Shown piece after piece: positions 3,258-27,542 of a stretch of DNA of 64,000 bases. The stretch lies in assembly GCF_009914755.1 (NCBI RefSeq), contig NC_060925.1, one strand, 5' to 3'. Positions within the stretch are counted from its first letter, which is position 1; every line of letters starts with the position of its first letter. Made by a program: the position numbers and the translations under genes. The notes under the pieces were generated by a model. That model worked only from the letters and a program-made list of their open reading frames with translations. It made no database searches and was not told the origin of the DNA. The stretch is from the human T2T-CHM13v2.0 reference genome, Homo sapiens.

Positions 3258-3950
3258 AAAGAGCCTGAGCATAAAATAATCAGCAAAGTCACTTTTTTTA
3301 TTTGTAGAAACTGACAAACTGATTCTAAAGTTGATGTGGACATGCAAGGTCCTAGACTAGTAAAAAAACTGAAAAAGAACAAAGTTGGAGCACTAACACT
3401 TCCTGATTTCAAGACTTAACCATAAAGCTGTAGCAATCAAGAAAATATATTCTTGGGCTGGACGCGATGTTTCGCACCTGTAATCTCAGCACTTTGGGAG
3501 GCCGAGTTGGGCGGATCACCGGAGGTCAAGAGTTCAAGACTAGCCTGGCCAACATGGTGAAACCCCATCTCTACTAAAAGTACAAAAATTAGCCGGGCGT
3601 GGTTGTGGGTGCCTGTAATCCTAGCTATTCAGGAGGCTGAGTCAGGAGAATCGCTTGAACATGGGAGGTGGAGGTTGCAGTGAGCCAAGGTTGCACCATT
3701 GCATTCCAGCCTGGGCGAAAGAGTGAGACTCCATCTCAAAAAAAGAAAATGCATTCTTGGCATTCAGATAGATCTATAGATCAATGGAACTCTCAATAGA
3801 GAGTCCAGAAATAAGCCCACAAGTACACCATCAACAGATTTTCAACAAAGGTGACAAGGTAATTCAATGAGAAAAGGATAACCTTTTCAACAAATGATGC
3901 TGGAACAATTAGATATAGACATATGCTTAAAAAAAAAAAAAAAAGCCTCC
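3258..3950 (+). mobile_element. Old L1 (L1M) ORF2 fragment interrupted by an Alu at ~3455-3750
   Basis: aaagaacaaagttggag...cctgatttcaagac and ttttcaacaaatgatgctgg L1 ORF2 motifs. Confidence 0.7.
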
Positions 3951-4799
3951 CAAATCCTGATCGAAGTTCTGTTCCCCACTGGTGAGGAATGCCTGCTCTA
4001 AATACCACAAGATGGCCAAATACATGACACCTGACACTGGAGAGAGATGAGATTGATAGCAGCTTATTAGTCAGATACACTCAGCCCATGGGAAGAGGAT
4101 AGATATGCTATGCTATGCAGGGCCACAAGGGGTTACTCTCAAGAATAGAATGAACTCATAGGGAGTATGGGAGGCAGGCTTTGTAGTAACAAGAAGATGA
4201 GGTGCCTCCTGGTTCCCATGGGAAGATGTGATTGGCTTGTCTGGAAAATTCCGTGGGCTGGCAGGGAAGTGAAACTCATTAGTTTAAGGACTGTGTGGAG
4301 TACAGCTGCTCCGGCTGATAGAGGAACTGGCCAGATGGGGACTCTTTCTCTCTGGATGGGGGACATCTCTGGTGCGAGCCGAGTAACTGATGGCTAGGCT
4401 TTTTTGGGGCTTCTGTGAGACTGAAAGATGTCAAGGCAATATATGAAATTTTAGACCTTGCAATAAATTTATCTCACACCATATATAAAAATTAACTCAA
4501 ATTGTTTGATAGATATGATCTGTAATTATGAAATATCTATTCATTTTCTAATGTATATAGGTAAATTTTTATAATTTTCCCCACAAAGATCTTGCACATT
4601 TTTGTTAGATTTATTCCTAGGTGCTTCATATTTTTAGATGCTATTAATAATAAATGCTATCTTTTTAAAAAAATTAATTTTCTACTAATTTGTTACTGGT
4701 ATTTTAAATTATAATTATTTTTATATATTGACCTTATATCTAGCAATCTTGCTAAAATTTATCATTCATTTTTATACTTTAGTTGAAGATTTAAACATT

Positions 4800-4948
4800 T
4801 TCTCTTTCTTTTTCTTGTCCAGGTTGGAGTGCTGGAGTGCAGTAGCATGATCTCCGTTCACTGCAGCCTCAACCTCCTGGGCTCAAGTAATCCTCCTGTC
4901 TTGTCCTCCCAAAATGCTGGAATTACAGGTGAGCCACCACACCCAGGC
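4800..4948 (-). mobile_element. Antisense Alu monomer (FLAM/AluJ-like)
   Basis: T-rich tail then gctggagtgcagtagcatgatc...gctcaagtaatcctcctg...attacaggtgagccaccacacccaggc. Confidence 0.85.
4914..4928 (+). CDS. CCDC30: Candidate Alu-derived start exon of a long CCDC30 isoform (exon 4823-4928; coding MLELQ)
   Basis: Acceptor tttttcttgtccag|g at 4822/4823. ATG at 4914 has A at -3. atg ctg gaa tta cag ends in phase 0 at donor CAG|GTGAGC, in frame with exon 7025. Confidence 0.55.
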
Positions 4949-5015: not shown

Positions 5016-5094
5016 AAGAAATTGGAACAAATCCACCAGTCTCTACAAAGAGAACATCAAGAACCTGTGTAACAGTCTAAAAAAACTGAGTGAG
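5016..5094 (+). other. Probable decayed ancestral coiled-coil exon of CCDC30
   Basis: Unique sequence bounded by ttttgttaag| and gag|gtaaaa. Reads KKLEQIHQSLQREHQEPV*QSKK then, after a 1-nt shift in the A7 run, LSE in phase 0. Confidence 0.4.
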
Positions 5095-5198: not shown

Positions 5199-5488
<290 letters not shown>

Positions 5489-5627: not shown

Positions 5628-5988
<361 letters not shown>

Positions 5989-7024: not shown

Positions 7025-7178
7025 TATCATAATGAAGACCTGGAAAAAGACAAAACATCACAAAACTGCCTAGGAAGAGGAATGGAACAAGTAGCAAAGA
7101 AGTTAGGGGTGGCTCATGAAGAGATTCAAAGGCTCACTGATGAACTACAAGTGAAGGAGAAGGAACAATGTAAATTAG
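7025..7178 (+). CDS. CCDC30: CCDC30 upstream coding exon A (YHNEDLEKDKTSQNCLGRGMEQVAKKLGVAHEEIQRLTDELQVKEKEQCKL)
   Basis: ttttatttcag| acceptor and |gtaagc donor; 154 nt, phase 0 to 1; heptad-like E/K/L/Q-rich peptide; internal ggaATGg at 7082. Confidence 0.8.
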
Positions 7179-9169
7179 GTAAGCTGTGGTTTCAGATGAC
7201 CATTTCCGATCATGCTTTAACTGTACTGATCTCATCTCAGGGTGGAACATGAGAAAAAAAAAAAACACTGAGAAACAAGTCTTTAAGATAAACACATAAA
7301 AGTGATGAACAGCCTCATTTTCTACCATGCTAGGAATTTTTGTCAAAGCCCAAGCATATCTACCAAAAGTGCACAACTTGTAAGTGTATACCACTCACCA
7401 CAAGAAATTCCCAGCCTCTCAGAAGTCCCCTGTGTTCCTTCTTTCTATCTCTACATCCTTCCTCCTCCTTCAGAGTAACTACTGTCCTGACTGAATGCAG
7501 TTTCTGCGTTTGACTATATGCAGTATGCCTTCTATGGTTTGCTTCTCCTGCTCAGTCTTATAAGATTCATTCATTTTGTTACACGTAGCAGTTGTTTGTT
7601 CACTCTGCTGTTTATAGTATTTCATTAATAAACATACTGCAATTTATCCATTCTACTGATGGACGATTGTGTTGTCAGTTTTTGTCTATTATGAATATTG
7701 CTGCTATAAACATTTTGGTATATGTCTCAGTGTGCTTATTACACATTTCTGATTGTGGTAAGAGCAGAATTACTGAATCAAAGGGCAGGTTCTACTTTGG
7801 TCTTCCAAGGTAATTATACTAATTTAAGCTTTCCTCAGTTGTATGTGAGATTTTAGTTCCTCCACCTTGGTTTTCAATACTTGGTACTGTCAGTCTTACC
7901 AACTTCACCTTTTATGTTGAGTGTATAGTGGTATTTAAGTGTGGCTTTAACTGGTATTCCCTGACTGCTAATTAAGTTGAAGATCTTTTCATATGTTTGT
8001 TGTTGTTGTTACTCGTTTGGATATACAACTTTGTGAAGTTCCTGCTCGAGTCTGTTGTATATTTTTCTATTTTATTTATTTGTGGGAGTTCTTTATATAT
8101 TGTGGATATGAGCCTTTTGTTGGTTATAAATGTTATGTTGTTGTTATTGTTTTTTTACCATAAATGCTAATATTCATCAAGTTGGGTTTAAGTGAATTAT
8201 TCTTTATGCTTTCTGAGTTTTCATGTTTAAAGCCTTTTCTTCACTACAAGGTTATTGAAAATATTTACCCCTGGTTTTGGGGGGGTACTTTTATTGTTTA
8301 TATTTACATCTTTGCTTTATCTAGAATTTAGTATAAAAATTTTAAATTATAATTATCTCCTTTCTATATTTTTAATCCGTGACTGATTCTTTTACAAATG
8401 CAATGTATAGGTTACTTTAGAATCATAAACATTAAAAATGTTAAATGTATAAAACAATAATGATTATGCCTGTGTGATTAAAAACAAATAATAATAAAAA
8501 AAAGAATATCAGGATGTAAATTTTTTATAAGTACATTTTAAACAGTGGACACAAATAACTTTTCAGAATGATGGAAATGTTGCATATCCCATGTGGGTTG
8601 GTGGGTATACAATTGTACATATTTGTCAGAATTCTTCAAACTATACACTTAAAAGGGTGAATTTCACTGCATGCAATTTATTCCTCAGTAAACACTATCT
8701 AAAAAGAAAATAAATTTGGTCACATGAACACGATGAGAAGCAATATTTGCTGCTTGCCATACAAGAAGAAAAAAGGAAAGCAGGATATTCAGTACCCTTA
8801 GTAGTTACATTTGGACACAACAGAACACAATCACATAGCAACCTGTTCTATCAGCAGTTGCTCTGTAGGGTAAATCCCAGACGTATCAACTGAAAGCCGT
8901 CTCCACAGTGAGTCTATTAGGACTGCTGGGAAGCTGAATTAGCAAGTCCTTTTGGAATGTTGTGTGCAGTATCAGTGTGTGCGCCATCTGTAACTTCCTG
9001 AGTCATCCACTTATAGCAGAATTTGTAGCTAGGCATGTGTTATATGACAGTGTTTCCCAAGTATTAGCTTGTTTCTTTCAACAAACTCTTTAAAATAAAT
9101 CCCTTTAGTTCTCTTTAGTTTATTCTTTAGCTCTCTATCACATCATAAAATTTGGATGAAAATGAAAAA

Positions 9170-11700
9170 TTTTTTCAGTGATAATTTTTTCAAGAATAAA
9201 AAAGAATTTATATAAAATATTTGTTCCTCAACAAATGAATATCAAGAAAAAAGATGAATTTTTAAAGATTTAAGAGACTTATTAACCAATTATGATGTGT
9301 GGCCTTTATTGAATCCTGATTCAAATTTTTAACATTAATAAAACAATTTGAAATTTGAACACTTGCTAGACATATGAGTTAAAGAATTATTGTTAAATTT
9401 TTGTTAAATTAATTTTTTGTTTAAAAAGAGTTCTTATTTTTTAGAGCTGTATAGTGAAATATTCATAAGTGAATGAAATGATGTCTAGGATTTGCTTCAA
9501 AATAATACAGGTCTCTACCTTACACCTACACAAAAATTAATTCAAAATGGATCATAGAGCTAAATGTAAGTTAAAACTGTAAAACTGTTAGAAGAAAACA
9601 AGGAAAACATCTTCATGATCTTGGGTTAAGCAGTGATACATTAAATATGACACCAAAAGCAAAAATGATGAGAAAAACTAATACATTGGACTAAATCAAA
9701 ATTTAAAACCTTTACAGTTCAAAACATACCATCAGAAAGTGAAAAGACAACTCATAGACTAGAAGAAAATATTTGCAAATCATGTGTTTGATATGGATCT
9801 TACATCCAGAATATGTAACAAATTCTTACAATTTAATAATTAAAAGACAGCCCAATTTAAAAATGGGCAAAAGGGCTGGGCGTGGTGACATGCACCTGTA
9901 GTCCTAGCTACTTGGAAGGCTGAGGTGGAAGGATAGCTTGAGCCCAGAAGTTTGAGGCTGTAGTAGGCGATGATTGTTCCAGCCTGGGTGACAGAGCAAG
10001 ACCCTGTCTCAAAGAAAAAAGATGGGCAAAGGATTTGAAAAGACATTTCCAGGAAGAAGATATGTGAATGACCAACAAGCACATGAAAAGATGCTCAGCA
10101 CCTCCCATCATAAAAATTGATAAGTATGTGAGGTGATAGATGTGTTAATTAACTTGATTTAATCACCCCACAATATAAATATATAGCAAAACATTACATT
10201 GTACCCCATAAACATATACAATTATTATTTGTCGATTAAGAAGACGATGTTCGATACCATTAGTTATTAGGGAAGTGCAAAGCAAAACCACAATGAGCGT
10301 CTACTTCATACCCACTAGAATGGCCATGCTAAAAAAGACAGACAGTGACAACTGTTGGTAAGGATGTGGAAACATTGAAACCCTTATACATTGCTAGTAA
10401 GAAGGTAAAATAGTGAAGATACTTTGGAAAACATTTAACAGTTTCTCAAAATATTAAAGGCGACCCAGAAATTCTACTCCTAGCTACCTACCCAGGAGAA
10501 ATGAAAACATGTATCAACACAGACTTGTATGTAAATGTTCATAACAATATTAGTTACAGTAGCCAAGAGTTAGAAACAACCCAACTGTCTGTCAGTTGGT
10601 GAACAGATAAACAAAATGCAGTATATCCATACTGTGCAGAAAGTAGCTAACAGCACACCCGACACTGCTATTCTTAAGAAAGGACTGCTTATAACAGTCA
10701 CAAGCATCTGGCTGACATCTGGGAACCTGGATTTTGGGAGGGTTTCCACCATTCCTTAACCAATAGTGGCTCACTGTGCCTAAGCTGTTTATACAATGTG
10801 GTCCATGCAGAACACCTGCTTTCCTTTAAGAGTCTTGGTATATGCTAGGCAGAAAGTGTGTGTGTGACCAGCCCTCAACAAAACCTTAGGTGGTGAGTCT
10901 TTCATGAACTTCCCAGGTAGACATTTTACATGTATTGTCACAGTTCACTGCTGGAGACATATCCTTTGTGACTCCACTGGGAGCGGACTCTTGGAAGCTT
11001 GTTCCTGGTTTCTTCTGGCCTTTGCCCTATGCATCCTTTCCCTTTGCTGATTTTGCTTTATCCTTTTGCTGTAGGAAATCTTAGCTTTGAATATGAACAT
11101 ATGTTGAGACTTGTGAGTCCTCTTAGCACATCACCAAACCTGGGGGTGACCTTGGGAACTCCTGACACTCATATGATAGAATACTATCTGCCAGTAAAAA
11201 GGAAGGAAGTACTTACACCTGCTACATGGATGAATCTCAAAAACAAGCTAAGTAAAAGAAGTCAGATGCAAAAGATCATATATTGTGTGATTCCATTTAG
11301 ATGAAATGTACATAAAAGGCAATCCTATAGAGATAGGAAGTAGATTGGCATAGCTGGGCACAGTAGCACATGCTTATGTCCCAACTACTTGCCACTTGGA
11401 AGGCTGAGGCAGAAGAATCACCTAGCCTATGAGTTTGAGTCCAACCTGAGCAACATAGTGATGCCCTGTCTCAAAAAAAAAAAAAAAAAAAAAAAGGAAA
11501 GTAGATTAGTGGTTGTCTAGGGCTAGGTATGAAAATTGGGATTGACTAAGTGCATATGATTTTCTTAATAGGGTGATGGAAATGTTCTAAAATTAGATTG
11601 CGATGGTTGCATACCTGTAGGTATACTAAAAACCATTGAATTGTCCACTTGAAATATGTAATTTTTAAGGTATGTAAACTGTACCTCAAAGCTGTTAAAA
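9170..11700 (+). mobile_element. Old L1 (L1MB/MC-like) 3' region with nested Alu monomers (9872-10020, 11353-11495), an L1MA 3' scrap (10110-10240) and an ERVL-type LTR (10633-11167)
   Basis: L1 ORF2-end and 3'UTR motifs resume on both sides of each insertion. Confidence 0.65.
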
Positions 11701-11728
11701 ATATAAGAACTGGGGGAAATAAGTGTAT

Positions 11729-12377
11729 TAGGTGAAAATCTAAGGTGGCCTCCAAGAGCCCCACCCCCTGGTATACACACATATTTTCCCAGTTATTCAA
11801 CCAAATACAATCTAGATGCTGCTGTGAAGAGATTTTGTAAGCGTAGTTACGGTCCCAAACCAACTGACTTTAAAGAAGGGAGATTATCTTACTTGAGCCT
11901 GATCTAATCAGGTGAGCTCTTAAAAGAGTCAAGGCATTTCCTGGCAAAAGAGATTTGAAGTGCAAGAGGGATTTAACATGAGGGAGATTCTACATTAATG
12001 ACTTTGAAGAACAAATAAATAATGACTTTGAAGATGGAGGAGACCAGGTAACAAAGAATGTGGGCAGCCTCCAAGAGCCAAGAGAGACCTCCAACTGACA
12101 GTCAGTGAGGAGATGGGGACCTCAGTCTTACACCCTCAAGGACTGATTTCAGCTAACAAGCTGAATCAGATTGGAAATGGATTCTTCTCCAGAGCCTTCA
12201 GAGAGAAACACAGCCTGGCCAACACCCTGATTTCACCCTTGTAAGACTTTGATCACAGAACCCCGGCACACCATGCCCGGACTCCTGACCTAGAGAAACG
12301 TGAACTAGTAGATGGATGCTGTTGTAAGCCACTAAGTTTGTGGCAATTTGTTATACGACATTAGAAAATTAATATAA
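11729..12377 (+). mobile_element. MaLR LTR (MLT1-like)
   Basis: gggagattatc...gctgttgtaagccactaagtttgtggcaatttgttata MLT1 motifs. Confidence 0.7.
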
Positions 12378-12671
12378 TATGTAAGGGTATAAGTGAAACA
12401 AGATTGACCATAAGTTGGTAATTGTTAAAAGCTGGGTGATGGATGTAGGTATTACCATAACTCTGCCCTAGCTACTTTTGTATATATTTGAAATCTTCCA
12501 TAAGTAAAAAAGTTTTTTTTTTTAAATCGATGCTAACCAGACTTAGAAAGAGACTTAGAAATAGACTAAGAAAGTAAAACTCTTAATCTGGTAGAGAGAT
12601 CTCAAGAAAAGTTACAACCAATACAGTTTTAGAAATATTACTGGTTTAGGAGGACTGTTGGAAAGCTAAAA

Positions 12672-12968
12672 TTTTCTTTTTTTTCTTTCTTTTTTTAGAG
12701 ACAGGGTTTCACTCTGTTGCCCAGATTGGAGTACAGTGGCACGATCATCACTTACTCACTGAGTTCCTGGGTTCAAGTGACCCTCCTGCCTCAGTCTCAT
12801 GAGTAGCTAGGACTACAGGCGTGTAGTGCCACAGTTGGCTAAGTTTTAAATCTTTTGTAGAGAAGGTGGTTTTACTTGCCCAGGCTGATCTCAAACTCCT
12901 GGCCTCAAGCAATCCTCATGCCTCAGCCTCCCAAGTGTTGTATAGGTGTGAGCCACTGTGCCCAACCC
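12672..12968 (-). mobile_element. Alu (J-like)
   Basis: Antisense Alu; TSD gaaagcta. Confidence 0.88.
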
Positions 12969-14518
12969 CAGAAAGCTACAGTTTTCAAGTATCTTCACAA
13001 ACATGGCAGAAACTAACCTGACCATAGAAGTTAATAAATTTGGTAGTCTGATATTATCTAAATTTGGAGCAATATATTTCACTATGTGTGCTATTCCAGA
13101 AATAGTTATTTTTTTCAAATGGCAATTAAGTCAAATGTTTTCAGAACACCTGAAGTCTTCAGAACTTAGAGGTTCATAGAATACAGTTTGGAAGCCCCTG
13201 GTTCACATAATAAATTCTGAGCTCTCTTATGTAGCAAATAAGGTCTTTCTGGTTTGGCCTCTGCCTATGTATCCAGGTCATATCCCACACTGTCCTAATT
13301 CTCTGCACTACAGACCAGGCAGTATTAGACTATATGTAGTTCCAGAACTACTCAGTGTTCCCTCCTATGTCGTCTCCTTTGTTCTGTCCTACTCCTATAT
13401 TACTCGTCTTATTCCCTCTTTCCAGAATATCCTTTCCACCTGCCCTCACTTTACTTTCTCTCCTTCTTCCATAGAGGAATACATTTAGAAAACTGTTCTT
13501 TTAGTAAAAACAAAAGCTATTTTTACATCTTTGGCTCAGTGTAAACAGACTTAGGTTCACATCCCAGCCATACAGTTTACTAGTTGTGTAATGTTGAGCA
13601 ACTTGCTTAACTTTTCTGAGTCTTGTTTATCTCATCTATAAAATGGAAACATGAATATCTACTTTGCAGATTTGTTATGATGGTACATATATCTGGCACT
13701 GGTAGTTACTGCTATGGTAACAGCAGTAGTAATAGTATTGCTATAGTTAGGAATGCAGTTTTAGGTGAATCTGGTGGGTTATCCTGGGATTTACTCTAAA
13801 GAACTGAGTGTTACGGATGTAATAATAAAACCTTCACAATTGTGCTGATGTGCTCACTCTGTGGTTAGAAGTGACCTGTTATAAAATTCATGTTAGTCTC
13901 TTACTTCTGGGAGGTTCTTCATTCTGATAATATAGGCGATCCACTAGCAATATCGCTGGTGATGAGGAGACCGTAGGAGACAAAGGGATAAAACCTGAAG
14001 TAGAGAGCCCAAATCCAATAGTCTTCCTAAATATCACTGTGCCATCCTTATACAATTCTTGCATAGCACCAAAAGCTATTTCCTGAAATTTTGTTATTTT
14101 GATATTTCTAGCAGCTATTGGCAAAATTCTAAATATGATTGATTGCAGGAATTATTTTTACTTATTTCTGGGTGTAATTTCTTTTTACTAAACTGGTAGT
14201 ACCATACCTAAAAACTTTCAGCTTTTCCTGTTGTTTACAGTGGTTTAAATTCCTCTTCATCATGAAATCTGATGGAGGAAACTATTAAGGAAAGACAATT
14301 ACAAGATCAGATAATCAGGGATAGGGCTAAATATAGGGTGCAGTAGGAACTCTAAGAGAGAAGTCTGGGAAAATTCCCTGAGGAGCTGACATTTAAGCAG
14401 AAACTCCTAGGACAGTAGCCAGGTGAAAGAAAGTGTTCCAGAGAGAGAGAGTCATTTGAAATTTGATTATTATACTAATCATTTGTTCCTTATACAAATA
14501 TTTTATTTCTTTTTTTAG

Positions 14519-14590
14519 ATTCTGCACTTAAGAAGGCTCAACTAGAAATTGACAAATTGAAGGAAAATTTGGTAAAGCTGAAAGAAAATG
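14519..14590 (+). CDS. CCDC30: CCDC30 upstream coding exon B (DSALKKAQLEIDKLKENLVKLKEN)
   Basis: tttctttttttag| acceptor and |gtaagt donor; 72 nt, phase 1 to 1; open; coiled-coil pattern. Confidence 0.85.
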
Positions 14591-14868
14591 GTAAGTCATT
14601 CTAGAAGATATGATGATTATTATTTAGTAGCCAAGAATGGTGGTACACGCCTGCAGTCCCAAAGACTTGGGAGGCTTGGGCCCAGGAGTTGGAGGTTGCA
14701 GTGAGCCATGTCTGTGCCACTGCACTCCAGCCTGGGTGATAATGCAAGACCGCATCTCAAAAGAATAAATTTTTTAAAAAATTATTATTTAATAATAATA
14801 CATTAAGAAATAATATAATATACATTAATAATATGCTTTAAAATAATATTTAGGAATTAAAATAATAA

Positions 14869-14936
14869 GTACTACTACTATTATTGCTGTTGCTACTACT
14901 GTTATTATTACTACTACTACTACCACTACTACTACC
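14869..14936. repeat. Interrupted (TAC)n/(TAT)n trinucleotide repeat
   Basis: Seen directly in the sequence. Confidence 0.8.
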
Positions 14937-15006
14937 ATTTATTGCTTACTAAGTGACAGGTACTCTGCCAGGCACTTCACATGCGTTATCTCTAATCCTC
15001 ACAACA

Positions 15007-15049
15007 GTCTATGGCCATACCACCCTGAACACACATATCTCATCTAATC
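15007..15049 (+). pseudogene. 5S rRNA 5' fragment (tailless retropseudogene) inside a MIR
   Basis: gtctatggccataccaccctgaac...atctcatctaatc matches the 5S 5' end GTCTACGGCCATACCACCCTGAAC...ATCTCGTCTGATC; ~16-bp direct repeats at 14991-15006 and 15043-15058. Confidence 0.8.
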
Positions 15050-15670
15050 CTCATAGCAGTTCCAAGTAGTGAGTAGTAGTATCCCTATTTCTTAGATAAG
15101 CAAACTGAGTCATGGCAGAGTTAAGAGTTATCCAGTAGCTACATTAAGTATCAGAGCTGGTATTTGAATCTTTATATGTCTGACTCCCAAACCTGTGATC
15201 AATACAAATCATGCATATTTTACTGGGACCACTGACACCAATATACTTTATAATGCATTTAACAATACTTTATACATATTTGTTCACTGGAAAGCCAGTA
15301 GGCTTGAATCAGTGGTGAATTAATCTGACCCTAGCTTGCCTATATAAAAATGCTACCAGTTATCAATAATATAATGAAATTTGACTATTTTAACGGTAAC
15401 AGCTAAAAAATTTTTAAATACGTTTACCAATTTTTAAATTCTAAAACTACACATACCCTCCTTTTAAAAATGTATGAATAGAATTATAAAATGAACACTG
15501 CTTTCTTAGTAATTAATAGTACAAGTAAACAGAAAAAAATCAGTAAGGATATAAAAGTCCTAAAAATACTAGCAGTCAACATGACCTAATTGATATTTAT
15601 AGAAAATTTTACCAGAATACACATTCTTTTCATATACCCATGAAACATTCACCAAGAGGGACCATCCTGG

Positions 15671-16075
15671 TGGAACTGGAAGTCATTATGCTAACAGAAA
15701 TAAGCCAGGCACAGAAAGACAAACATTGCATGTTCTCACTTATTTGTGGAATCTAAAAATCAAAACAGTTGAACTCATGGACATAGAGAGCAGAAAGATT
15801 GTTACCAGAGGATGGGAAGGAGAATAAAGGGGCAGTTTCAGTGGGAGGTGGGGAATGGTTAATGGGTAAAAAAAAAAAAAAGAAAGAATAAGACCTAGTA
15901 TTTGATAGCACAACAGGGTGACTATAGTCAATAATAATTTAATTGTACCTTTTAAAATAACTTAAAGAGTATAATTGGATTGTTTGTAACACAAAGGATA
16001 AATACTTGAGGAGATGGATAACCTATTTTCCATGACATGATTATTACGCATTGCATGCCTGTATCAAAACATGTA
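15671..16075 (+). mobile_element. L1MA-type 3' UTR fragment lacking its terminal ~50 nt
   Basis: tggaactggaagtcattatg...gcacagaaagacaaacattgcatgttctcac...gcattgcatgcctgtatcaaaacat. Confidence 0.75.
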
Positions 16076-16076
16076 G

Positions 16077-16866
16077 CCTTTTGGCTCTGTGAGCAGCACC
16101 ATGGCTGTTGGCAAGAACAAGCACCTTATGAAAGGTGGCAAAAAGGGAGCCGAAAATAGAGTGGTTGATCCATTTTCTAAGAAAGATTGGTGTGATGTAA
16201 AAGCACTTGCTATGTTCAATATAAGAAATATTGGAGAGACGCTAGTCACCAGGACTCGAGGAACCAAAATTGCATCTGATAGCCTCAAGCGTCGTGTGTT
16301 TGAAGTGAGTCTTGCTGATCTGCAGAATGATGAAGTTGCATTTAGAAAATTCAAGCTGATTGCTGAAGATGTTCAGGAAAAAAACTAACTTCCAGGGCAT
16401 GGATTTACCCCTGACGAAATGTGTTCCGTGGTCAAAAAATGGCAGACCATGATTGAACCTCACATTGATGTCAAGACTACCGATGGTTATTTGTTTCATC
16501 TACTCTGTTGATTTTACTAAAAAACACAATCTGATACAGAAGGCCTCTTATGCTCAGCACCAACAGGTCTGCGAAATCCAGAAGAAAATGATGGAAATTA
16601 TGACCTGAAAGGTGCAAATGACTTGAAAGAAGTGGTCAATAAATTGATTCCAGGCAGCACTGGAAAAGAGAAAAGCTTTGCCTATCTATTTATCTTCTCC
16701 ATGATGTCTTTGTTAGAAAAGTAAAAATGCTGAAGATGCCCAAGTTTGATTTGGGAAAATTCATGAAGGTAATTGTTCTGGAAAAGCCACTGGGGATGAG
16801 ACAGGTGCTAAAGTCGAATTAGCTGATGGATATGAAGCACTGGTCCAAGAATCTGTTTAAAGTTCA
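16077..16866 (+). pseudogene. RPS3A: RPS3A (40S ribosomal protein S3a/eS1) processed pseudogene
   Basis: 5' pyrimidine tract ccttttgg; ATG at 16101 ([17 protein letters not shown]...); intronless; frame breaks after EDVQEKN; C-terminal ...VQESV* ends at 16860. Probably the copy named RPS3AP11 (recall, unverified). Confidence 0.95.
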
Positions 16867-17016
16867 AAATTTAAAAAAAAGGCCATCCTGGGCCATAAAG
16901 CAAATCTCTGTGAAAAAAATGAAATCATACAAATTATTTTCTCTGATCATAATGGAATTAAACTAAAAATTGGTAACAGAAGTAGATTCGTTGGAAATAT
17001 TTGGAAATTAAAAAGA

Positions 17017-17306
17017 TTTTTTTTTTTGAGACGGATTCTCACGTTGTCGCCCAGGCTGGAGTGTAGTGGCATGACCTCAGCTCACTGCAACCTCTACCTC
17101 CTAGGTTCAAGCAATTCTCTGCCTCAGCCTCCCGAGTAGCTGGAATTACAGGAAACTGCCACCATGCCCAGCTAATTTTTGTATTTTTAGTAGAGATGGG
17201 GTTTCACCATGTTGGCCAGGCTGGTCTTGAACTCCTGACCTTGTGATCCACCCGCCTCAGCCTCCCAAAGTGCTGGGATTACAGGCGTGAGCCACCGCAC
17301 CCGGCC
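17017..17306 (-). mobile_element. Alu (S-type)
   Basis: Antisense dimer; TSD taaaaagat. Confidence 0.92.
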
Positions 17307-17669
17307 TAAAAAGATATTTATAAAAAGACCATGCCTTCAGAGAAAAAAATTAAGAGAGATATTAGAAAATATTTTGAATTTAAGAAAATGAAAATGCAAC
17401 AATATCATCATTTCTGTGACATAGCTAAATCAGTACTTAGAGGGAATTTTATAGTATTTAATGTTTATACTAGAAATCAAGAAAGGACTCAAAATAATCT
17501 AAGTCTATACCTCAGAAACCCAGAATAAGGTGAGCAGAATAAGAACAATAAGAATATAATTAAATATAATAAGAATAAGAAGAATAAGAACAGAATAAGA
17601 AGAGAAAATTAAATCCAAGGCATGCAGAAGGAAGGAGATATTAAAATAAGAGTTAGAATCAACAAAAGT

Positions 17670-17962
17670 GGCTGAGCGCAGTGGCTCACGCCTGTAATCC
17701 CAGCACTTTGGGAGGCTGAAGCAGGTGGATCACGAGGTCAAGAGATCAAGACTATCCTGGCCAACATGGTGAAACCCCGTGTCTACTAAAAATACAAAAA
17801 TTAGCTGGGTGTGGTGGCGCATGCCTGTAATCCCAGCTAACTCGGGAGGCTGAGGCAGTAGAATCTCGAACCTGGGAGGCAGAGGTTGCAGTGACCGGAG
17901 ATTGTGCCACTGCACTCCAGCCTGGCCACAGATGGAGACTCCATCTCAAAAAAGAAAAAAAA
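17670..17962 (+). mobile_element. Alu (S-type)
   Basis: Full dimer; TSD aatcaacaaaa. Confidence 0.92.
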
Positions 17963-18293
17963 ATCAACAAAACTAAAGACAGAACCGCAATAGAGTAAAT
18001 CAGTGGAACCAAGAGCTGCTTCTTCAGAAAGAACAACATTGATAAACTTTTAGCTAGATTGGTCATGAAAAAAGAGAGAAGTCACAAATTACCAATATAA
18101 AAAATAACAGAATAATTCTACACAATAAAAAGATAATACAGGAATATTATGAATAACTTTATGCCAGTAAATTGATGACCTGGATGACGTGGACACATTC
18201 CTTAAAAGACACAAACTACCAAACCTCAGCTAAGAAGAAATAGCTCTAAATCTATGTAAAGAGGCGGAATTTTTAGTTAAAAACCTTCCCATG

Positions 18294-20090
<1,797 letters not shown>

Positions 20091-20482
20091 ATCTTCCCAT
20101 GAGGAAAACTCCAGGCTCAGATTGCTTCATTAGTGAATTCTAATAAGAGGAATTATTTAAGGAATAAATAATACTAAATTTACATAATTTCTTCCAGAAA
20201 ATTGAAGAAGAGAATACTTCCCACCTTTTTAAGTGGCCAGTTAACAAATAAGTACAGAGAGTAAGAAATAACTTGTTGGATAGTAAAATTAAATGCAGTA
20301 TGTTTACCAACAATAGATTGTTAAATAAGTGACTATACGAGGCATACTTTGCAGCTGTTAAAGACGACATGGAGCCAAGTGTGCACTGACATGAATAGAT
20401 TTCTGTGATATATTATCAAGTGAATAAGGCAAGTTGTAGAGTAAGATGTGTGGTATAATGTCATTTGGGTTTTTTATTTGTG

Positions 20483-20484
<2 letters not shown>

Positions 20485-20518
<34 letters not shown>
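20485..20518. repeat. (TG)n microsatellite
   Basis: About 17 perfect units. Confidence 0.95.
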
Positions 20519-20521
<3 letters not shown>

Positions 20522-21455
20522 CACAGGACCTCTGTGAGCTGGTATATACTAGTATGGCAGTAATGTTGTGAAGATACTGGAATAATTCTGTGTTGAGTTG
20601 TAAGTAGCTGTTGTCCTGAGTCTTCCAAGCATTTCTACCTGCCCTAATTGTCTTAGCTCCTTCTAGCCCCATGTCTTCCCAGCTACTAAAGAGATAATAT
20701 TTAGCACAGCAAAATGTTCTCTAGAACTCTACTTCAGAGCTACATTCTTATAGATGAGGGTACATGCTTAACCAGTTGTTAAATATTTTTAACACAACTT
20801 TGTCTGTTTGTATATTACTATAAATATATATATATAAATGTCTGAAAATATTTACTATGTGTTAAAAATATTATTTTGGGACATGGTACTAGGTGAAGGT
20901 GGGATAAAAATATTCACTTTGAACAAAACTATGTAGTTTGATTAACAAAAAGCCTATGTTCCATTTGTGATCAATAAAATTTGAGGTATTAACACTTTAC
21001 AATTCAAGACTTACAATAAAGCTACAGCATGGAATTGTTCTAAGAACAGATATATAAACTAATGGACTAGGAGGTATGTAAAAGAGACAGGACTGAAAGG
21101 CATTTTTTTTGGTCATTTAACTTTTAAAAGGTAGGCTAGGCTAAATTGTTTTAAAATTCTAGGTCCTAGAAGAACCTCTATTGCTGCAAACCCTACACTC
21201 AAAAAGTCCAATTCATTGGTCTGGTGTGAGTAATATAAAACTTTCTCTGTTATTTCTTTGGGTTGGTAGAATATTCTAGGACTAGACTTGAGAGCCTAGT
21301 GGCTCTCCTGCACAGAGAGCCAGCCACATATGCAGAGACATGGTAGGACTGACAAGAAGGGCAGGCTAAATAGCACTTCCTTCGTTTTTAGAGTTAGTGC
21401 CCCTGAAACTAAAACTTTGATCCAGTTGAGTAAACTGTGTTCTTCTCTGTTTTAG

Positions 21456-21571
21456 ATGCAGCTGACCTACAGAAAGCAAAGGAACAAAATCAGAGACTGG
21501 ATGAGGAAATTCTGGCTTTAAGAAATAGGGTTCGATCACTTGACTCAGAAAAAAAGGTGCTTGGTGAAATG
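21456..21571 (+). CDS. CCDC30: CCDC30 upstream coding exon C (DAADLQKAKEQNQRLDEEILALRNRVRSLDSEKKVLGEM)
   Basis: ttctctgttttag| acceptor and |gtaagt donor; 116 nt, phase 1 to 0; open; coiled-coil pattern. Confidence 0.85.
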
Positions 21572-22099
21572 GTAAGTTTAATTTACTTCTTAGAACGTAT
21601 TTAAATGTGTCTACCATAACAATCAACAGCATAAGCAACACAGGTATACAACATGTAAGTTGGTCTTTAGCAGGGACCAATACTGGTGGCTGTAATATCT
21701 CAGGGGGATGCCATGCTTTGACCTAGATGCATTCTATCTGTACTTATATTTTATACATTTTAACTACCTATGCTAAACAGCAACATTGTTGCTATCATGT
21801 AAATCTAGGATCTTTTAAATAAGGAATTAGATAATAGTTTATAGTTAACACGTTCACCACATAGAAAATATTACTCTATTATATTGGATAAGTTTAAGAT
21901 TATTAATACTAAATCTTTAACTGTTTATATTTTTAACCATTTCTTCTTAGCAATTTACTGATTTTTAAAAATATGTACTTCCAAATTTTAAATACATCTC
22001 TTCAATTTTAGTTTATATTCATTAAATAATCATATATCTAATATCTAAGAAAATACCTGGCATAATACTAGGTGCTTTAGAAATTTTTTTGCAAGAGTG

Positions 22100-22860
22100 A
22101 CTAAAGACCCATCAGGATGGCTAATATCAAAACAACAGAGAATAACAAATGTTGATGTGGAAAAATTGGAACCCTTTTGCATTGCTGGTGAGAATCTAAA
22201 GTAGTGCAGCCACCATGGAAAACAGTTACTCTAAAAGTTAAATATAGAATCACCATGTGGTCTGACAATTCCACTTCTGGATATATGCCCCAGAGAATTG
22301 AAAACAGAGACTCATACATAGATTTGTACATCCATATTCATAGTAGCATTATTCACAATAGCCAGAAGTTGGAAGCAGCTCAGATGCTCGTTGATAGAGG
22401 AACAGATAAGCAAAATGTGGTATAGCCATACAATGGAATATTATTCAGCATTAAAAAGGAAAGAAATTCATACACATGCTGCAACATGAATGAACATTGA
22501 AGACATTATTCTAAATGAAATAATACAGTCACAAAAGGACAAATAATATGTGATTACACTTATATGGCATGCTTAGAGTAGTGAAAGTCATAGAGACAGA
22601 AAGTATTAATAGAATGGTCATTGCCAGTGGCTGGGGAGAGGGAGTAACGGGAGTTATTGTTTAATGAGTATAGAGTTTCAGTGCAAGATGAAGAGTTCTG
22701 GAGATGGATGGTGGTGATGGTTGCACAACAGTGTGCCTGACAATGTACTTAATAATATGCTTAATGATGCTTAATGCCACTGAACTGTACACTTAAAAAT
22801 GGCTAACATGGTAAATTTTGTTATGTGTATTTTACCACAATAAAAATGCAATCATAAAAA
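22100..22860 (+). mobile_element. L1MB-like 3' end
   Basis: atacaatggaatattattcagcattaaaaagg...cacttaaaaatggctaacatgg. Confidence 0.75.
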
Positions 22861-23175
22861 GAATGAATAAAAAGTGAAGATTGGTAAGTTGTCTAAGTCT
22901 TCATAAATTTATGTATCTAATACATTTATATATTTAATACATGTGTGTATACGTGAAAAAGTTCAGGTAGGGTACATTCCAAGCAGTGTTATTTCTGGAA
23001 AGGGAGGACCAGTTGTGATATGAAGGAAAATACCATTTTTTATTCTGTATACCTATGTGTTGAAGATTTACAAGGAGAATGTATTTATATATTACTTGTA
23101 TAATTAAAAAACAAAACAATAATTTATCCAAACAAAAATTGAGAAGTCTACAAGGTGTTTACTTTTGTATTTAAG

Positions 23176-23274
23176 GTTGAAAGACTTAAAGGAGAGGTGT
23201 GTGAATCTCAAGAGAATAAGCAACTTGGAAACCACTCCCCTGGAAAAACTGTGGGTGGTGAACAGAGAGAACAG
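23176..23274 (+). CDS. CCDC30: CCDC30 upstream coding exon D (VERLKGEVCESQENKQLGNHSPGKTVGGEQREQ)
   Basis: ttttgtatttaag| acceptor and cag|gtattg donor; 99 nt, phase 0 to 0; open. Confidence 0.75.
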
Positions 23275-23842
23275 GTATTGTATTTTAAAGTTCTGTTCTT
23301 TCTGATCTCTAATTTTTGAGTTGCATTTTTACAGAGTATACTAGAGTGATTGGTGCTAATCATTTGCTACTCTTTCTTATTGGGCTGTCTTTTTCTAATG
23401 CTCAGCTAATTAGAGTGGAAGAGGAAAGAGGGCTACAGAGGATGTGTTTCTGTTTACTTCTTCCTCATAGAGAACAATTAATTTGGAGAATATAGTAGAT
23501 TGTTTCTCTGAAGAGAAAAGAATCTTATAAAGATACAATTTGAGCATATCATGGAGAACTAATAAGATGTAGGCTCCAGTGTGTACAGTGTCTACTATAT
23601 TCAGCATGATCAGCCTCTGAAGTGGTGAGCAAAGCAATCAAACCCAAGACAGACTGATACAAGTGCCAGGGTATATCTAGTAAATAGTGGTTTTAATTTG
23701 CCTTTTGAGGGTGTCTAATGGCCATGAATATGTTTTGGCCATTTATATATGTTCTTTTGTGAAGCATCTGTTCAAATCTTTTATACATTTTTAATGGAGT
23801 GGTCTGCATTCTTAAAAAATTTATTTTATTTTTATTATTATA

Positions 23843-24130
23843 TTTTTTTTAGAGATAGGTTTTCACTCTGTTGCCCAGGCTGGAGTACAGGGGTGCAGTC
23901 CTGGCTCGCTGCAGCCTCAACCTTCCAGGCCCAAGCCATCCTCCTGCTCCAGCCTCTCAAGTAGCTGGGACTATAGGCATGCAGCACCACACTCAACTAA
24001 TTTTAAAAAATCTTTTTTGTAGAGATGAGGTCTCACTATGTTGTCCAGGCCAGTCTCAAACTCCTGGCCTCAGGTAATCTTCTTGCCTCCCAAAGTGCTG
24101 GGATTACAGGCATGTGCCACTGTTTCTGGC
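23843..24130 (-). mobile_element. Alu (J-like)
   Basis: Antisense Alu; its head forms part of the target site of the TMSB4X insertion. Confidence 0.85.
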
Positions 24131-24138
24131 TTGTATTC

Positions 24139-25070
<932 letters not shown>

Positions 25071-27260: not shown

Positions 27261-27542
27261 ATTTTCTTTTTGAGACAGGGTCTCACTCTGTCACCCAGGC
27301 TGGAGTGCATGCTCACTGCAGCCTTGACCTTCCAGGCTCAAGCAATTTTCCCACCTCAGCCTCCTGAGTAGCTAGGACTATAAATGCGCACCACCACACT
27401 CAACTAATTTTTGTGATTTTTTAGTAAAGACAAGGTCTGGCTATGTCACCCAGGCTAGTTTCAAACTCCTGAGCTCAAGCAATCATTCCACTTGGCCTCC
27501 CAAAATGCTGGGATTATAGACATGAGCCAGTACACCCCACCC
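27261..27542 (-). mobile_element. Alu (J-like)
   Basis: Antisense Alu next to the ERV LTR. Confidence 0.85.

What the first reader, a model, noticed from the sequence alone, without database searches (positions are those of the whole stretch)
4823..4928. Antisense Alu supplies an exon and an in-frame start codon for a long CCDC30 protein
Seen: the Alu poly-T forms a strong acceptor (tttttcttgtccag|). The usual ttacagg(c/t)gtgagcc has lost 2 nt, giving the near-consensus donor CAG|GTGAGC. An ATG at 4914 (A at -3) lies exactly 15 nt before it, so MLELQ splices in phase 0 onto exon 7025 and the frame stays open to exon G. An out-of-frame ATG at 4847 would form an overlapping uORF that stops early in exon A. 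Known: antisense Alu exonization is common, but Alu-derived initiation codons are rarer. Inference: a primate-specific start rescued the long isoform after the ancestral upstream exon decayed.
Basis: partly seen in the sequence, partly recalled or inferred. Interest (0 to 1): 0.85.

Follow-up and report, generated by a model that had tools for sequence, protein, structure and literature searches.

The report
Alu-derived leader exon of CCDC30
An old Alu repeat inserted backwards in the human CCDC30 gene is used as an exon and carries the annotated start codon, but this is already in the reference annotation and adds only a short, probably dispensable, tail to the protein.

Summary
Exon 4823-4928 is an antisense Alu monomer with a strong acceptor. 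Its donor, CAG|GTGAGC, was made by a 2-nt deletion. An ATG sits at 4914, 15 nt before the donor, and an out-of-frame upstream ATG sits at 4847. The frame stays open through all seven annotated coding parts.

The exon and the coding start coincide exactly with the RefSeq selected transcript NM_001395517.1, so the feature is already annotated.

- In favour: non-anthropoid mammals and strepsirrhines encode about 110 or more extra N-terminal residues. In human, one of those exons cannot be found, one lacks its donor, and one is a broken pseudo-exon at 5016-5094, just 87 nt past the Alu donor.
- Against "rescue": the Alu ATG adds only 24 residues, five of them Alu-coded, ahead of an in-frame ATG at 7082. 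That ATG has a strong context and is Met in 85 of 85 anthropoid models. The ancestral start exon is also still intact upstream.

The 4914 ATG is catarrhine-specific. New World monkey models have Val there and use another ATG in the same Alu exon. Which start is used in vivo is unproven. This is an ordinary, well-understood kind of event, and I rate its interest as low to moderate.

The parts
4792..4947 (-). Alu monomer (7SL-derived SINE unit). Its sense strand is the minus strand, so it is antisense to CCDC30.
   Evidence: Rfam Metazoa_SRP hit covering model positions 1-299 with the central 170 positions replaced by 26 nt. 49 dispersed matches in the window. Alignment to eight window Alus.
4800..4822 (+). 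Polypyrimidine tract plus AG acceptor of the Alu exon.
   Evidence: 17 of 18 pyrimidines at -20..-3. The longest T run in the 60 nt upstream is 5.
4823..4928 (+). Alu exon: 106 nt, of which 91 nt are leader and 15 nt coding.
   Evidence: Matches the RefSeq selected transcript in the hub table. Splice sites read.
4847..4850 (+). Out-of-frame upstream ATG (4847-4849) overlapping the in-frame stop TGA (4848-4850). Orangutan and macaque models read Arg at this codon.
   Evidence: Human reads LECWSAVA*SP where Pongo and Macaca read ..SAVARSP..
4914..4916 (+). Annotated start codon, ATG, at a site where left-arm-type Alu copies read GTG.
   Evidence: In one search, 17 of 19 left/short copies read AAAGTG. 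M in all 42 catarrhine models that contain the exon and V in 8 of 8 New World monkey models.
4929..4934 (+). Donor GTGAGC, created by a 2-nt deletion in the Alu 5' end.
5016..5094 (+). Decayed ancestral cassette exon ('exon X'), 79 nt. It has an in-frame TAA at 5070, a 9-nt deletion and a 2-nt deletion. The acceptor ttaag| and donor GAG|gtaaaa are still present.
   Evidence: tblastn against seal P0105 gives 70% identity over 27 aa, E 1.4e-7, and against otter P0107 E 3e-4. HMM hit with iE 2.9e-5. Frames shown. The exon is present in carnivore and deer proteins.
7025..7178 (+). Ancestral coding exon that the Alu exon splices to. It holds the upstream-ORF stop TAA 7030-7032, a second small ORF at 7032-7073, and the in-frame ATG 7082-7084.
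   Evidence: Orthologues found.

Best explanation
Positions 4823-4928 are an established, anthropoid-age antisense Alu exon. It serves as a 5' leader exon that links upstream CCDC30 promoters to the ancestral exon at 7025.

Origin of its signals:
- The acceptor is the decayed 3' end and T-rich tail of the Alu. It is pyrimidine-rich, but its T runs are too short for strong hnRNPC repression.
- The donor arose from a 2-nt deletion that turned CAGGCGTGAGCC into CAG|GTGAGCC.
- A G-to-A change of the left-arm-type GTG made an ATG in catarrhines.
- A CpG C-to-T change (CGA to TGA at 4848), which arose no earlier than the split from orangutans, closed the frame upstream. The same change created an out-of-frame upstream ATG.

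Because of these changes, 4914 is the first in-frame ATG of the longest ORF and is annotated as the start.

The Alu adds five residues (MLELQ) and opens the ORF 24 codons before ATG 7082. ATG 7082 is conserved across anthropoids and has a strong context. I infer that 7082 is the evolutionarily constrained start.

I also infer that ribosomes on Alu-exon mRNAs divide among three fates:
- the 4847 upstream ORF, which ends at 7032 and abuts a second small ORF ending 8 nt before 7082;
- initiation at 4914;
- initiation at 7082.

On this reading the exon mainly shapes the leader and translation efficiency, and it does not rescue the protein. It was recruited while the ancestral N-terminal exons were being lost in anthropoids.

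Shown here: the sequence anatomy, the Alu origin, the annotation match, the distribution across clades, and the lost or decayed ancestral exons. Inferred: the usage of each start codon, the role of hnRNPC, and the order of events.
For: - Anatomy and frames.
- Alu origin and the 2-nt deletion.
- The annotation matches exactly (hub table).
- ATG contexts: 4847 is agtagcATGat, 4914 is cccaaaATGct, and 7082 is agaggaATGga. Only 7082 has both a purine at -3 and G at +4.
- The 7082 site is Met in 85 of 85 anthropoid models and in 0 of 32 lemur and non-primate models, which read V 15, A 15, G 2.
- The 4914 site is M in catarrhines and V in 8 of 8 New World monkey models. Those models instead start at another ATG nine codons upstream in the same exon.
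- Between the orangutan and baboon 938-aa models, 4 of 45 differences fall in the first 24 residues (Fisher one-sided p 0.024). This hints at relaxed constraint upstream of 7082.
- Ancestral exons: the start exon is intact at about -2352..-2335. Exon b has an open frame but no GT donor. Exon c was not detected in -25 kb..7300. Exon X is broken. Exon b is absent from every anthropoid protein found (8 hits).
- The longest T run before the acceptor is 5. Attig et al. 2016 (PMC5115870, passages read) state that about 9-10 uridines are needed for cooperative hnRNPC binding, and that old Alu exons have shorter U-tracts and less repression.
- Lin et al. 2016 (PMC4731929, passages) state that highly included Alu exons lie mostly in 5' UTRs.
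Against: - No transcript or translation data were available, so inclusion level and start-site use are untested.
- RefSeq curators chose 4914.
- A purine at -3 makes 4914 an adequate start, and some leaky scanning past 4847 is plausible, so the MLELQ form may be abundant.
- The 19 residues between 7025 and 7082 are well conserved across mammals as coding sequence. This fits continued translation from upstream of 7082.
- The substitution-enrichment test rests on only four changes.
- All cross-species evidence comes from automatic gene models, which pick the longest ORF.
- The upstream exon or exons of the selected transcript lie outside the window and were not given, so further upstream ATGs are unknown.
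Confidence: 0.6

Rival explanations
1. The Alu ATG at 4914 is the principal, selected initiation codon, and it replaced the lost ancestral N-terminus, so the long CCDC30 protein in catarrhines depends on it.
For: - It is the annotated coding start of the selected RefSeq transcript (hub table).
- It has A at -3, and the ATG is present in all 42 catarrhine models that contain the exon.
- Ancestral exons c and X are lost or broken.
- New World monkey models use a different in-frame ATG in the same Alu exon. This could reflect repeated selection for a start there.
Against: - ATG 7082 is in frame, has a stronger context, is conserved across anthropoids, and lies only 24 codons downstream.
- The ancestral start exon is intact, and its homologue is spliced in frame to 7025 in 18 anthropoid models.
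- An upstream ATG with equal context precedes 4914 and overlaps it.
- Gene models choose the longest ORF by rule, so the New World monkey and catarrhine ATGs are not independent evidence of use.
- The peptide string was found in no paper.
Confidence: 0.25
2. The Alu exon is a minor or decay-prone leader. In the tissues where CCDC30 matters (multiciliated cells, testis), most mRNA starts at the ancestral start exon (MGETKE) spliced directly to 7025, or skips the Alu exon. The selected transcript over-represents the Alu exon.
For: - The ancestral start exon and its donor are intact in human.
- MxxTKE|exon-7025 models are common: 16 of 62 Old World monkey models and 2 of 15 ape models.
- Translation of the 4847 upstream ORF would end far upstream of many exon junctions, which is a feature of decay targets (established knowledge of nonsense-mediated decay).
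- Martinez-Gomez et al. (PMC6924539, passages) found that only 9.2% of exon-overlapping Alu elements lie in principal exons.
Against: - RefSeq selected this transcript out of 11 (hub table).
- The splice sites are as good as any in the window: the donor matches 8 of 9 consensus positions and the acceptor has 17 of 18 pyrimidines.
- Alu-exon forms are the commonest class among ape models, at 10 of 15.
Confidence: 0.12
3. The resemblance to Alu and the splice and start signals are chance features of unique sequence.
For: The Rfam SRP score is below the family's gathering score.
Against: - 49 dispersed matches in the window.
- Column-by-column alignment with eight Alus.
- An SRP match with exactly the S-domain deletion that defines Alu.
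- Exact agreement with a curated exon (hub table).
Confidence: 0.01

Closest known systems
Antisense Alu exonization. Lev-Maor et al. 2003 is cited in the passages of PMC5115870 read. The typical right-arm exon of about 120 nt and Sorek et al. 2004 on donor formation are recalled, not read here.
   Same: The Alu is antisense to the gene. The acceptor comes from the T-rich tail and terminal body, and the donor lies at the ..TTACAG|G.. site near the Alu 5' end. The exon is 106 nt. It is an old exon with short U runs.
   Different: The donor arose through a 2-nt deletion rather than the usual C-to-T change; other window copies show the usual route (CAGGTGTGAGCC, CAGGTATGAGCC). The unit is one monomer long, with a right-arm-type body and a left-arm-type head. 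As a result the frame reads AAA ATG where right arms read a TAG stop (15 of 17 copies).
Alu exons in 5' UTRs that tune translation. This is stated in the background of Lin et al. 2016, PMC4731929 (passages). The original Shen et al. 2011 paper is recalled, not read.
   Same: It is a leader exon with an upstream ATG and a short overlapping ORF, placed ahead of the conserved coding exon.
   Different: Here the Alu also holds an in-frame ATG that the reference annotation treats as the coding start.
[quoted passage not shown] 2020, PMC6924539, passages).
   Same: A few Alu-coded residues are added at the N-terminus of an old gene's main annotated isoform.
   Different: CCDC30 is not named in that paper's main text or in its one supplement held as text. 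Here the addition sits beside a decayed ancestral exon and replaces a longer ancestral N-terminus.

Membership tests
Exonized antisense Alu | The sequence is a 7SL-derived Alu unit oriented antisense to the host gene. | tested here: met
   Rfam Metazoa_SRP on the minus strand at 4792-4947 with the S domain missing. 49 dispersed matches. Alignment A1.
Exonized antisense Alu | Both splice sites lie within the Alu or its tail. | tested here: met
   The acceptor AG at 4821-4822 and the donor GT at 4929-4930 both lie inside 4792-4947.
Exonized antisense Alu | The exon is included in mature mRNA. | not testable with these tools
   No RNA data were available. Indirect support comes from the curated NM_001395517.1 in the hub table, and from 50 of 85 anthropoid gene models that carry the exon's residues.
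Exonized antisense Alu | The exon is restricted to primates. | tested here: met
   The exon's residues occur in ape, Old World monkey and New World monkey models. They occur in none of 32 lemur and non-primate models, nor in the loris, galago and deer models. Presence of the insertion itself in strepsirrhine DNA was not testable.
Alu-derived translation start | The ATG lies inside Alu sequence and is the first in-frame ATG after an in-frame stop. | tested here: met
   ATG 4914 lies within 4792-4947. The in-frame TGA is at 4848-4850, with no in-frame ATG between them.
Alu-derived translation start | Ribosomes actually initiate there (initiation profiling or an N-terminal peptide). | not testable with these tools
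   The peptide string LELQYHNEDLEK was found in 0 papers. No Ribo-seq or proteomics tool was available.
Upstream-ORF translational control | An upstream ATG in usable context opens a short ORF that overlaps or precedes the main start. | tested here: met
   ATG 4847 has A at -3 and opens 29 codons ending at 7030-7032. A second ORF spans 7032-7073.
Upstream-ORF translational control | A measured effect on main-ORF translation. | not testable with these tools
   This needs reporters or ribosome profiling.

The most novel reading that the evidence does not exclude
In anthropoid primates the ancestral N-terminal module of a basal-body protein, about 110 residues long, was discarded. An Alu monomer that landed 68 nt upstream of a now-broken ancestral exon took over as the splice-in exon. 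In-frame start codons then arose independently within that same Alu exon in catarrhines (4914) and in platyrrhines (nine codons upstream). Later, somewhere after the split from orangutans, a CGA-to-TGA change converted a read-through coding exon into a leader with an overlapping upstream ORF. Under this reading the Alu ATG is a real, used start and the locus records stepwise N-terminus replacement.
Probability: 0.3. Interest if true: 0.5.

Novelty: already known. Interest (0 to 1): 0.27.

Why it matters
CCDC30 was called completely uncharacterized until a Xenopus study placed it in a ring around basal bodies and found it necessary for centriole amplification in multiciliated cells (bioRxiv 10.1101/2025.05.20.655211, passages). 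Anyone cloning, tagging or interpreting variants in human CCDC30 needs to know three things about the annotated N-terminus:
- Its first five residues are Alu-coded and specific to catarrhines.
- It is preceded by an overlapping upstream ORF.
- It is followed 24 codons later by a better-conserved ATG.

N-terminal tags, start-loss variant calls and comparisons with mouse or frog should take this into account. As an evolutionary case it is a tidy but unsurprising example of Alu exonization in a gene's 5' end.

Tried and rejected
- Exon 1470-1498, which belongs to other transcripts, was tested as a possible ancestral start exon. It has no ATG and is non-coding.
- I looked for ancestral exon c (..SSPSEQIAYLLVERST..) in window -24999..7300. 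tblastn with word size 2 at E<=0.05 and an 8-sequence HMM against all six frames found nothing. The whole-genome search also found nothing, but it used a stricter first look that can miss weak matches.
- I tried to decide whether the element is a fossil monomer or a dimeric Alu with an inter-arm deletion. The window's own copies show a mixed arm signature. Without a repeat library this stays open. Alignment A1 also leaves two possible registers at the acceptor: an 8-nt tandem duplication of TGGAGTGC, or an 18-nt deletion.
- I tried to date the human TGA at 4848. Models that read through the Alu exon exist for Pongo abelii (1), Macaca (17) and Aotus (2), and for no Homo, Pan or Gorilla entry among 26 hits. 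Absence of a model does not show the stop is present, so the change is dated only as arising no earlier than the split from orangutans.
- Literature searches (all returned nothing relevant to this exon):
  - CCDC30 + Alu returned 5 papers.
  - CCDC30 alone returned 83 papers, of which 15 were listed.
  - CCDC30 was absent from the held supplements of PMC6924539, PMC4731929 and PMC5115870.
  - Only text-held supplement files were searched, and bioRxiv supplements are closed, so a table listing may exist that I could not see.

Full report
**What is in the sequence**

The window reads ...ttctctttctttttcttgtccag|GTTGGAGTGCTGGAGTGCAGTAGCATGATC...CCCAAAATGCTGGAATTACAG|gtgagccaccac....
- The exon spans 4823-4928 (106 nt). 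Its acceptor has 17 of 18 pyrimidines at -20..-3, and its donor CAG|GTGAGC matches 8 of 9 consensus positions.
- ATG 4914 (cccaaaATGct) lies 15 nt before the donor.
- MLELQ joins exon 7025 in phase 0, and the frame stays open through all seven annotated coding parts, 240 codons in total.
- ATG 4847 (agtagcATGat) is out of frame. It opens a 29-codon ORF that ends at TAA 7030-7032.
- That stop overlaps a further ATG at 7032, whose 13-codon ORF ends at 7071-7073, 8 nt before the in-frame ATG at 7082 (agaggaATGga).
It overlaps the upstream ATG and makes 4914 the first in-frame ATG after a stop.

**It is an Alu**

Positions 4831-4946 match 49 other places in the window at 69-92% identity. Rfam's Metazoa_SRP model matches the minus strand at 4792-4947 end to end. 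The central 170 model positions are replaced by 26 nt, which is the S-domain deletion that defines Alu. The score is 25.9 bits, E 8.7e-5, below the gathering score of 70.

Of 36 other Alu-arm copies in the window that cover 4905-4935, 34 carry two extra bases between CAGG and TGAGCC. CAGGTGAGCC occurs once in 64 kb. The 2-nt deletion is therefore real.

The element is one monomer long and mixed in type.
- It carries the right-arm-specific segment.
- At the start-codon site it reads like left arms. 17 of 19 left/short copies read AAAGTG, and one other copy, at 27499, also reads AAAATG.
- The 17 right-arm copies read GTAG (15 copies, giving a TAG stop in this frame), TAC (1) or TTAG (1).

Whether this is a fossil monomer or a dimer with an inter-arm deletion could not be settled. 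The acceptor AG and the nearby pyrimidines align with the end of the Alu body as well as with its T-tail.

**It is already annotated**

The hub's RefSeq table gives exon 4823-4928 and coding 4914-4928 for NM_001395517.1, the selected transcript.

**Distribution across species**

I searched the protein database with exon 7025-7177. It returned 130 proteins at E<=0.001 among 136 candidates, of which 120 were listed. All named entries are CCDC30 or readthrough models. I sorted their N-termini.

| Group | Models | N-terminal classes |
|---|---|---|
| Apes | 15 | 9 start MLELQ; 1 reads through the Alu exon from upstream; 2 start MDETKE|YH..; 2 use a sense-Alu exon; 1 uses a 5'-extended exon 7025 |
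| Old World monkeys | 62 | 15 start MLGLQ; 17 read through the Alu exon; 16 start MNKTKE|SH..; 9 use another upstream exon; 4 start at MEQVAKK; 1 uses a 5'-extended exon |
| New World monkeys | 8 | All contain the Alu exon but read V at the 4914 site; 6 start at another ATG nine codons upstream ([14 protein letters not shown]) and 2 read through |

- The Alu exon therefore predates the split between catarrhines and platyrrhines, and the 4914 ATG is catarrhine-specific.
- Orangutan and macaque read-through models have Arg (..SAVARSP..) where human has TGA. The human stop and the overlapping upstream ATG thus come from one CGA-to-TGA change.
- No read-through model was found for Homo, Pan or Gorilla among 26 hits. 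This is weak evidence.

**The ancestral N-terminus**

Strepsirrhine models (lemur, loris, galago) and carnivore, deer, bat and elephant models carry 110 or more residues upstream of the exon-7025 homologue. I mapped these onto human DNA, using the window plus 25 kb fetched upstream.

| Ancestral exon | Human position (window coordinates) | State in human | Calls |
|---|---|---|---|
| Start exon | about -2352..-2335 | Intact: ATGGGTGAAACAAAAGAA|gtgaga, encoding MGETKE | 20, 41 |
| Exon b | -276..-154 | Open frame, 85% identical to lemur; CAAACAG is followed by agttgt, so there is no GT where the lemur exon ends; in no anthropoid protein (8 hits, all strepsirrhine or deer) | 18, 20, 41, 42 |
| Exon c (..SSPSEQIAYLLVERST..) | none found | Not detected by tblastn or by an 8-sequence HMM in -24999..7300 | 20, 24 |
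| Exon X | 5016-5094 | Remnant, present as an exon in carnivores and deer: KKLEQIHQSLQREH---QEPV*QSKK..LSE|gtaaaa | see below |

The exon X remnant scores E 1.4e-7 against seal (tblastn) and iE 2.9e-5 against the HMM. It carries an in-frame TAA, a 9-nt deletion and a 2-nt deletion. It starts 87 nt after the Alu exon's donor.

**Why "rescue" is not supported**

- ATG 7082 is in frame, 24 codons downstream, and is the only one of the ATGs with both a purine at -3 and G at +4.
- The residue at that site is Met in 85 of 85 anthropoid models. It is V, A or G in all 32 lemur and non-primate models, and V in the loris and galago models as printed. This ATG therefore also arose on the anthropoid stem and is conserved there. 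The Alu ATG is catarrhine-only.
- The ancestral start exon is still intact, and its homologue is joined in frame to exon 7025 in 18 anthropoid models.
- Between the orangutan and baboon 938-aa models, 4 of 45 differences fall in the first 24 residues (p 0.024). This is a weak hint of relaxed constraint upstream of 7082.
- Under the scanning model (established knowledge, not tested here), the 4847 ATG has a context equal to that of 4914, so it should capture many ribosomes and carry them past 4914. Its short ORF, together with the abutting second small ORF, ends just before 7082, where reinitiation is plausible.

**How it most likely works**

The Alu exon is a leader exon for transcripts that start at upstream promoters. 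Gene models show it joined to an exon at about -11.8 kb in macaque and to PPCS exons 1-2 in orangutan.

The 938-aa orangutan model maps to 17 detectable coding exons in the locus. Adding the 5-residue Alu part, the 72-nt exon at 14519 and one further small undetected exon gives about 20 coding exons. If the human selected transcript has the same coding structure, one of its 21 exons is a non-coding exon upstream. That is an assumption.

The short T runs (maximum 5) fit the picture of old Alu exons that have escaped hnRNPC repression (PMC5115870, passages).

I put 0.6 on the reading [quoted passage not shown].

**Comparison with what is known, and novelty**

This is a textbook antisense Alu exonization in a 5' end. 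Precedents exist for Alu-coded N-terminal residues in main isoforms (HSD17B7 and BEND2, PMC6924539), and for leader Alu exons more generally (PMC4731929).

I found no paper on this particular exon and no listing in the supplements held as text. Other supplement files and bioRxiv supplements could not be seen.

The exon and its start codon are in the curated annotation, so I file the feature as already known. The clade-by-clade history and the pseudo-exon beside it are modest additions.

Noticed in passing
window 5016-5094: Broken ancestral coding exon, present in carnivore and deer CCDC30. It has a TAA, a 9-nt deletion and a 2-nt deletion, but both splice sites are intact. It lies 87 nt downstream of the Alu exon's donor.
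   Followed up: yes
window 3467-3556: A sense-orientation Alu with an ATG, an open 30-codon frame ([30 protein letters not shown]) and a gtgaaa donor. It is 90% identical to the alternative N-terminus of two Pongo abelii CCDC30 models, making it a second Alu-derived candidate start exon.
   Followed up: partly
window 4816-4883 (+): Rfam mir-3135 (an Alu-like hairpin family) matches at 44.9 bits, below its gathering score of 80. This is probably just the Alu fold.
   Followed up: no
L007 / about -276..-154 and L010-L011 / about -2421..-2335 (upstream of the window): Ancestral CCDC30 exon b has an open frame but no GT donor. The ancestral start exon (MGETKE|gtgaga) is intact and lies close to the annotated 3' end of PPCS.
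   Followed up: partly
L009 / about -19072..-18288 (PPCS exons 1-2): PPCS-CCDC30 readthrough models exist: P0067, elephant P0109-P0111, and orangutan P0011, which uses an alternative frame of PPCS exon 2. A PPCS-CCDC30 chimeric RNA is listed in PMC4824105 (passage).
   Followed up: partly
G000:C1:42516627-42516818 (downstream of the window): The CCDC30 exon encoding residues of about 785-848 of the 938-aa model matches about 30 dispersed genomic loci at 39-62% identity, with stops. That coding exon is probably also repeat-derived.
   Followed up: no
window 5380-5445 and 5661-5911: Alu copies in the opposite orientation lie 450-1000 nt downstream of the Alu exon. They could pair with it in pre-mRNA. 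Any effect on splicing or on editing of the start codon is untested.
   Followed up: no
G000:C10:28734202-28734542 (-): Two adjacent matches to lemur CCDC30 residues 566-683 at 56-59% identity, with stops. This is a fragment of a related or pseudogenic sequence on another chromosome.
   Followed up: no
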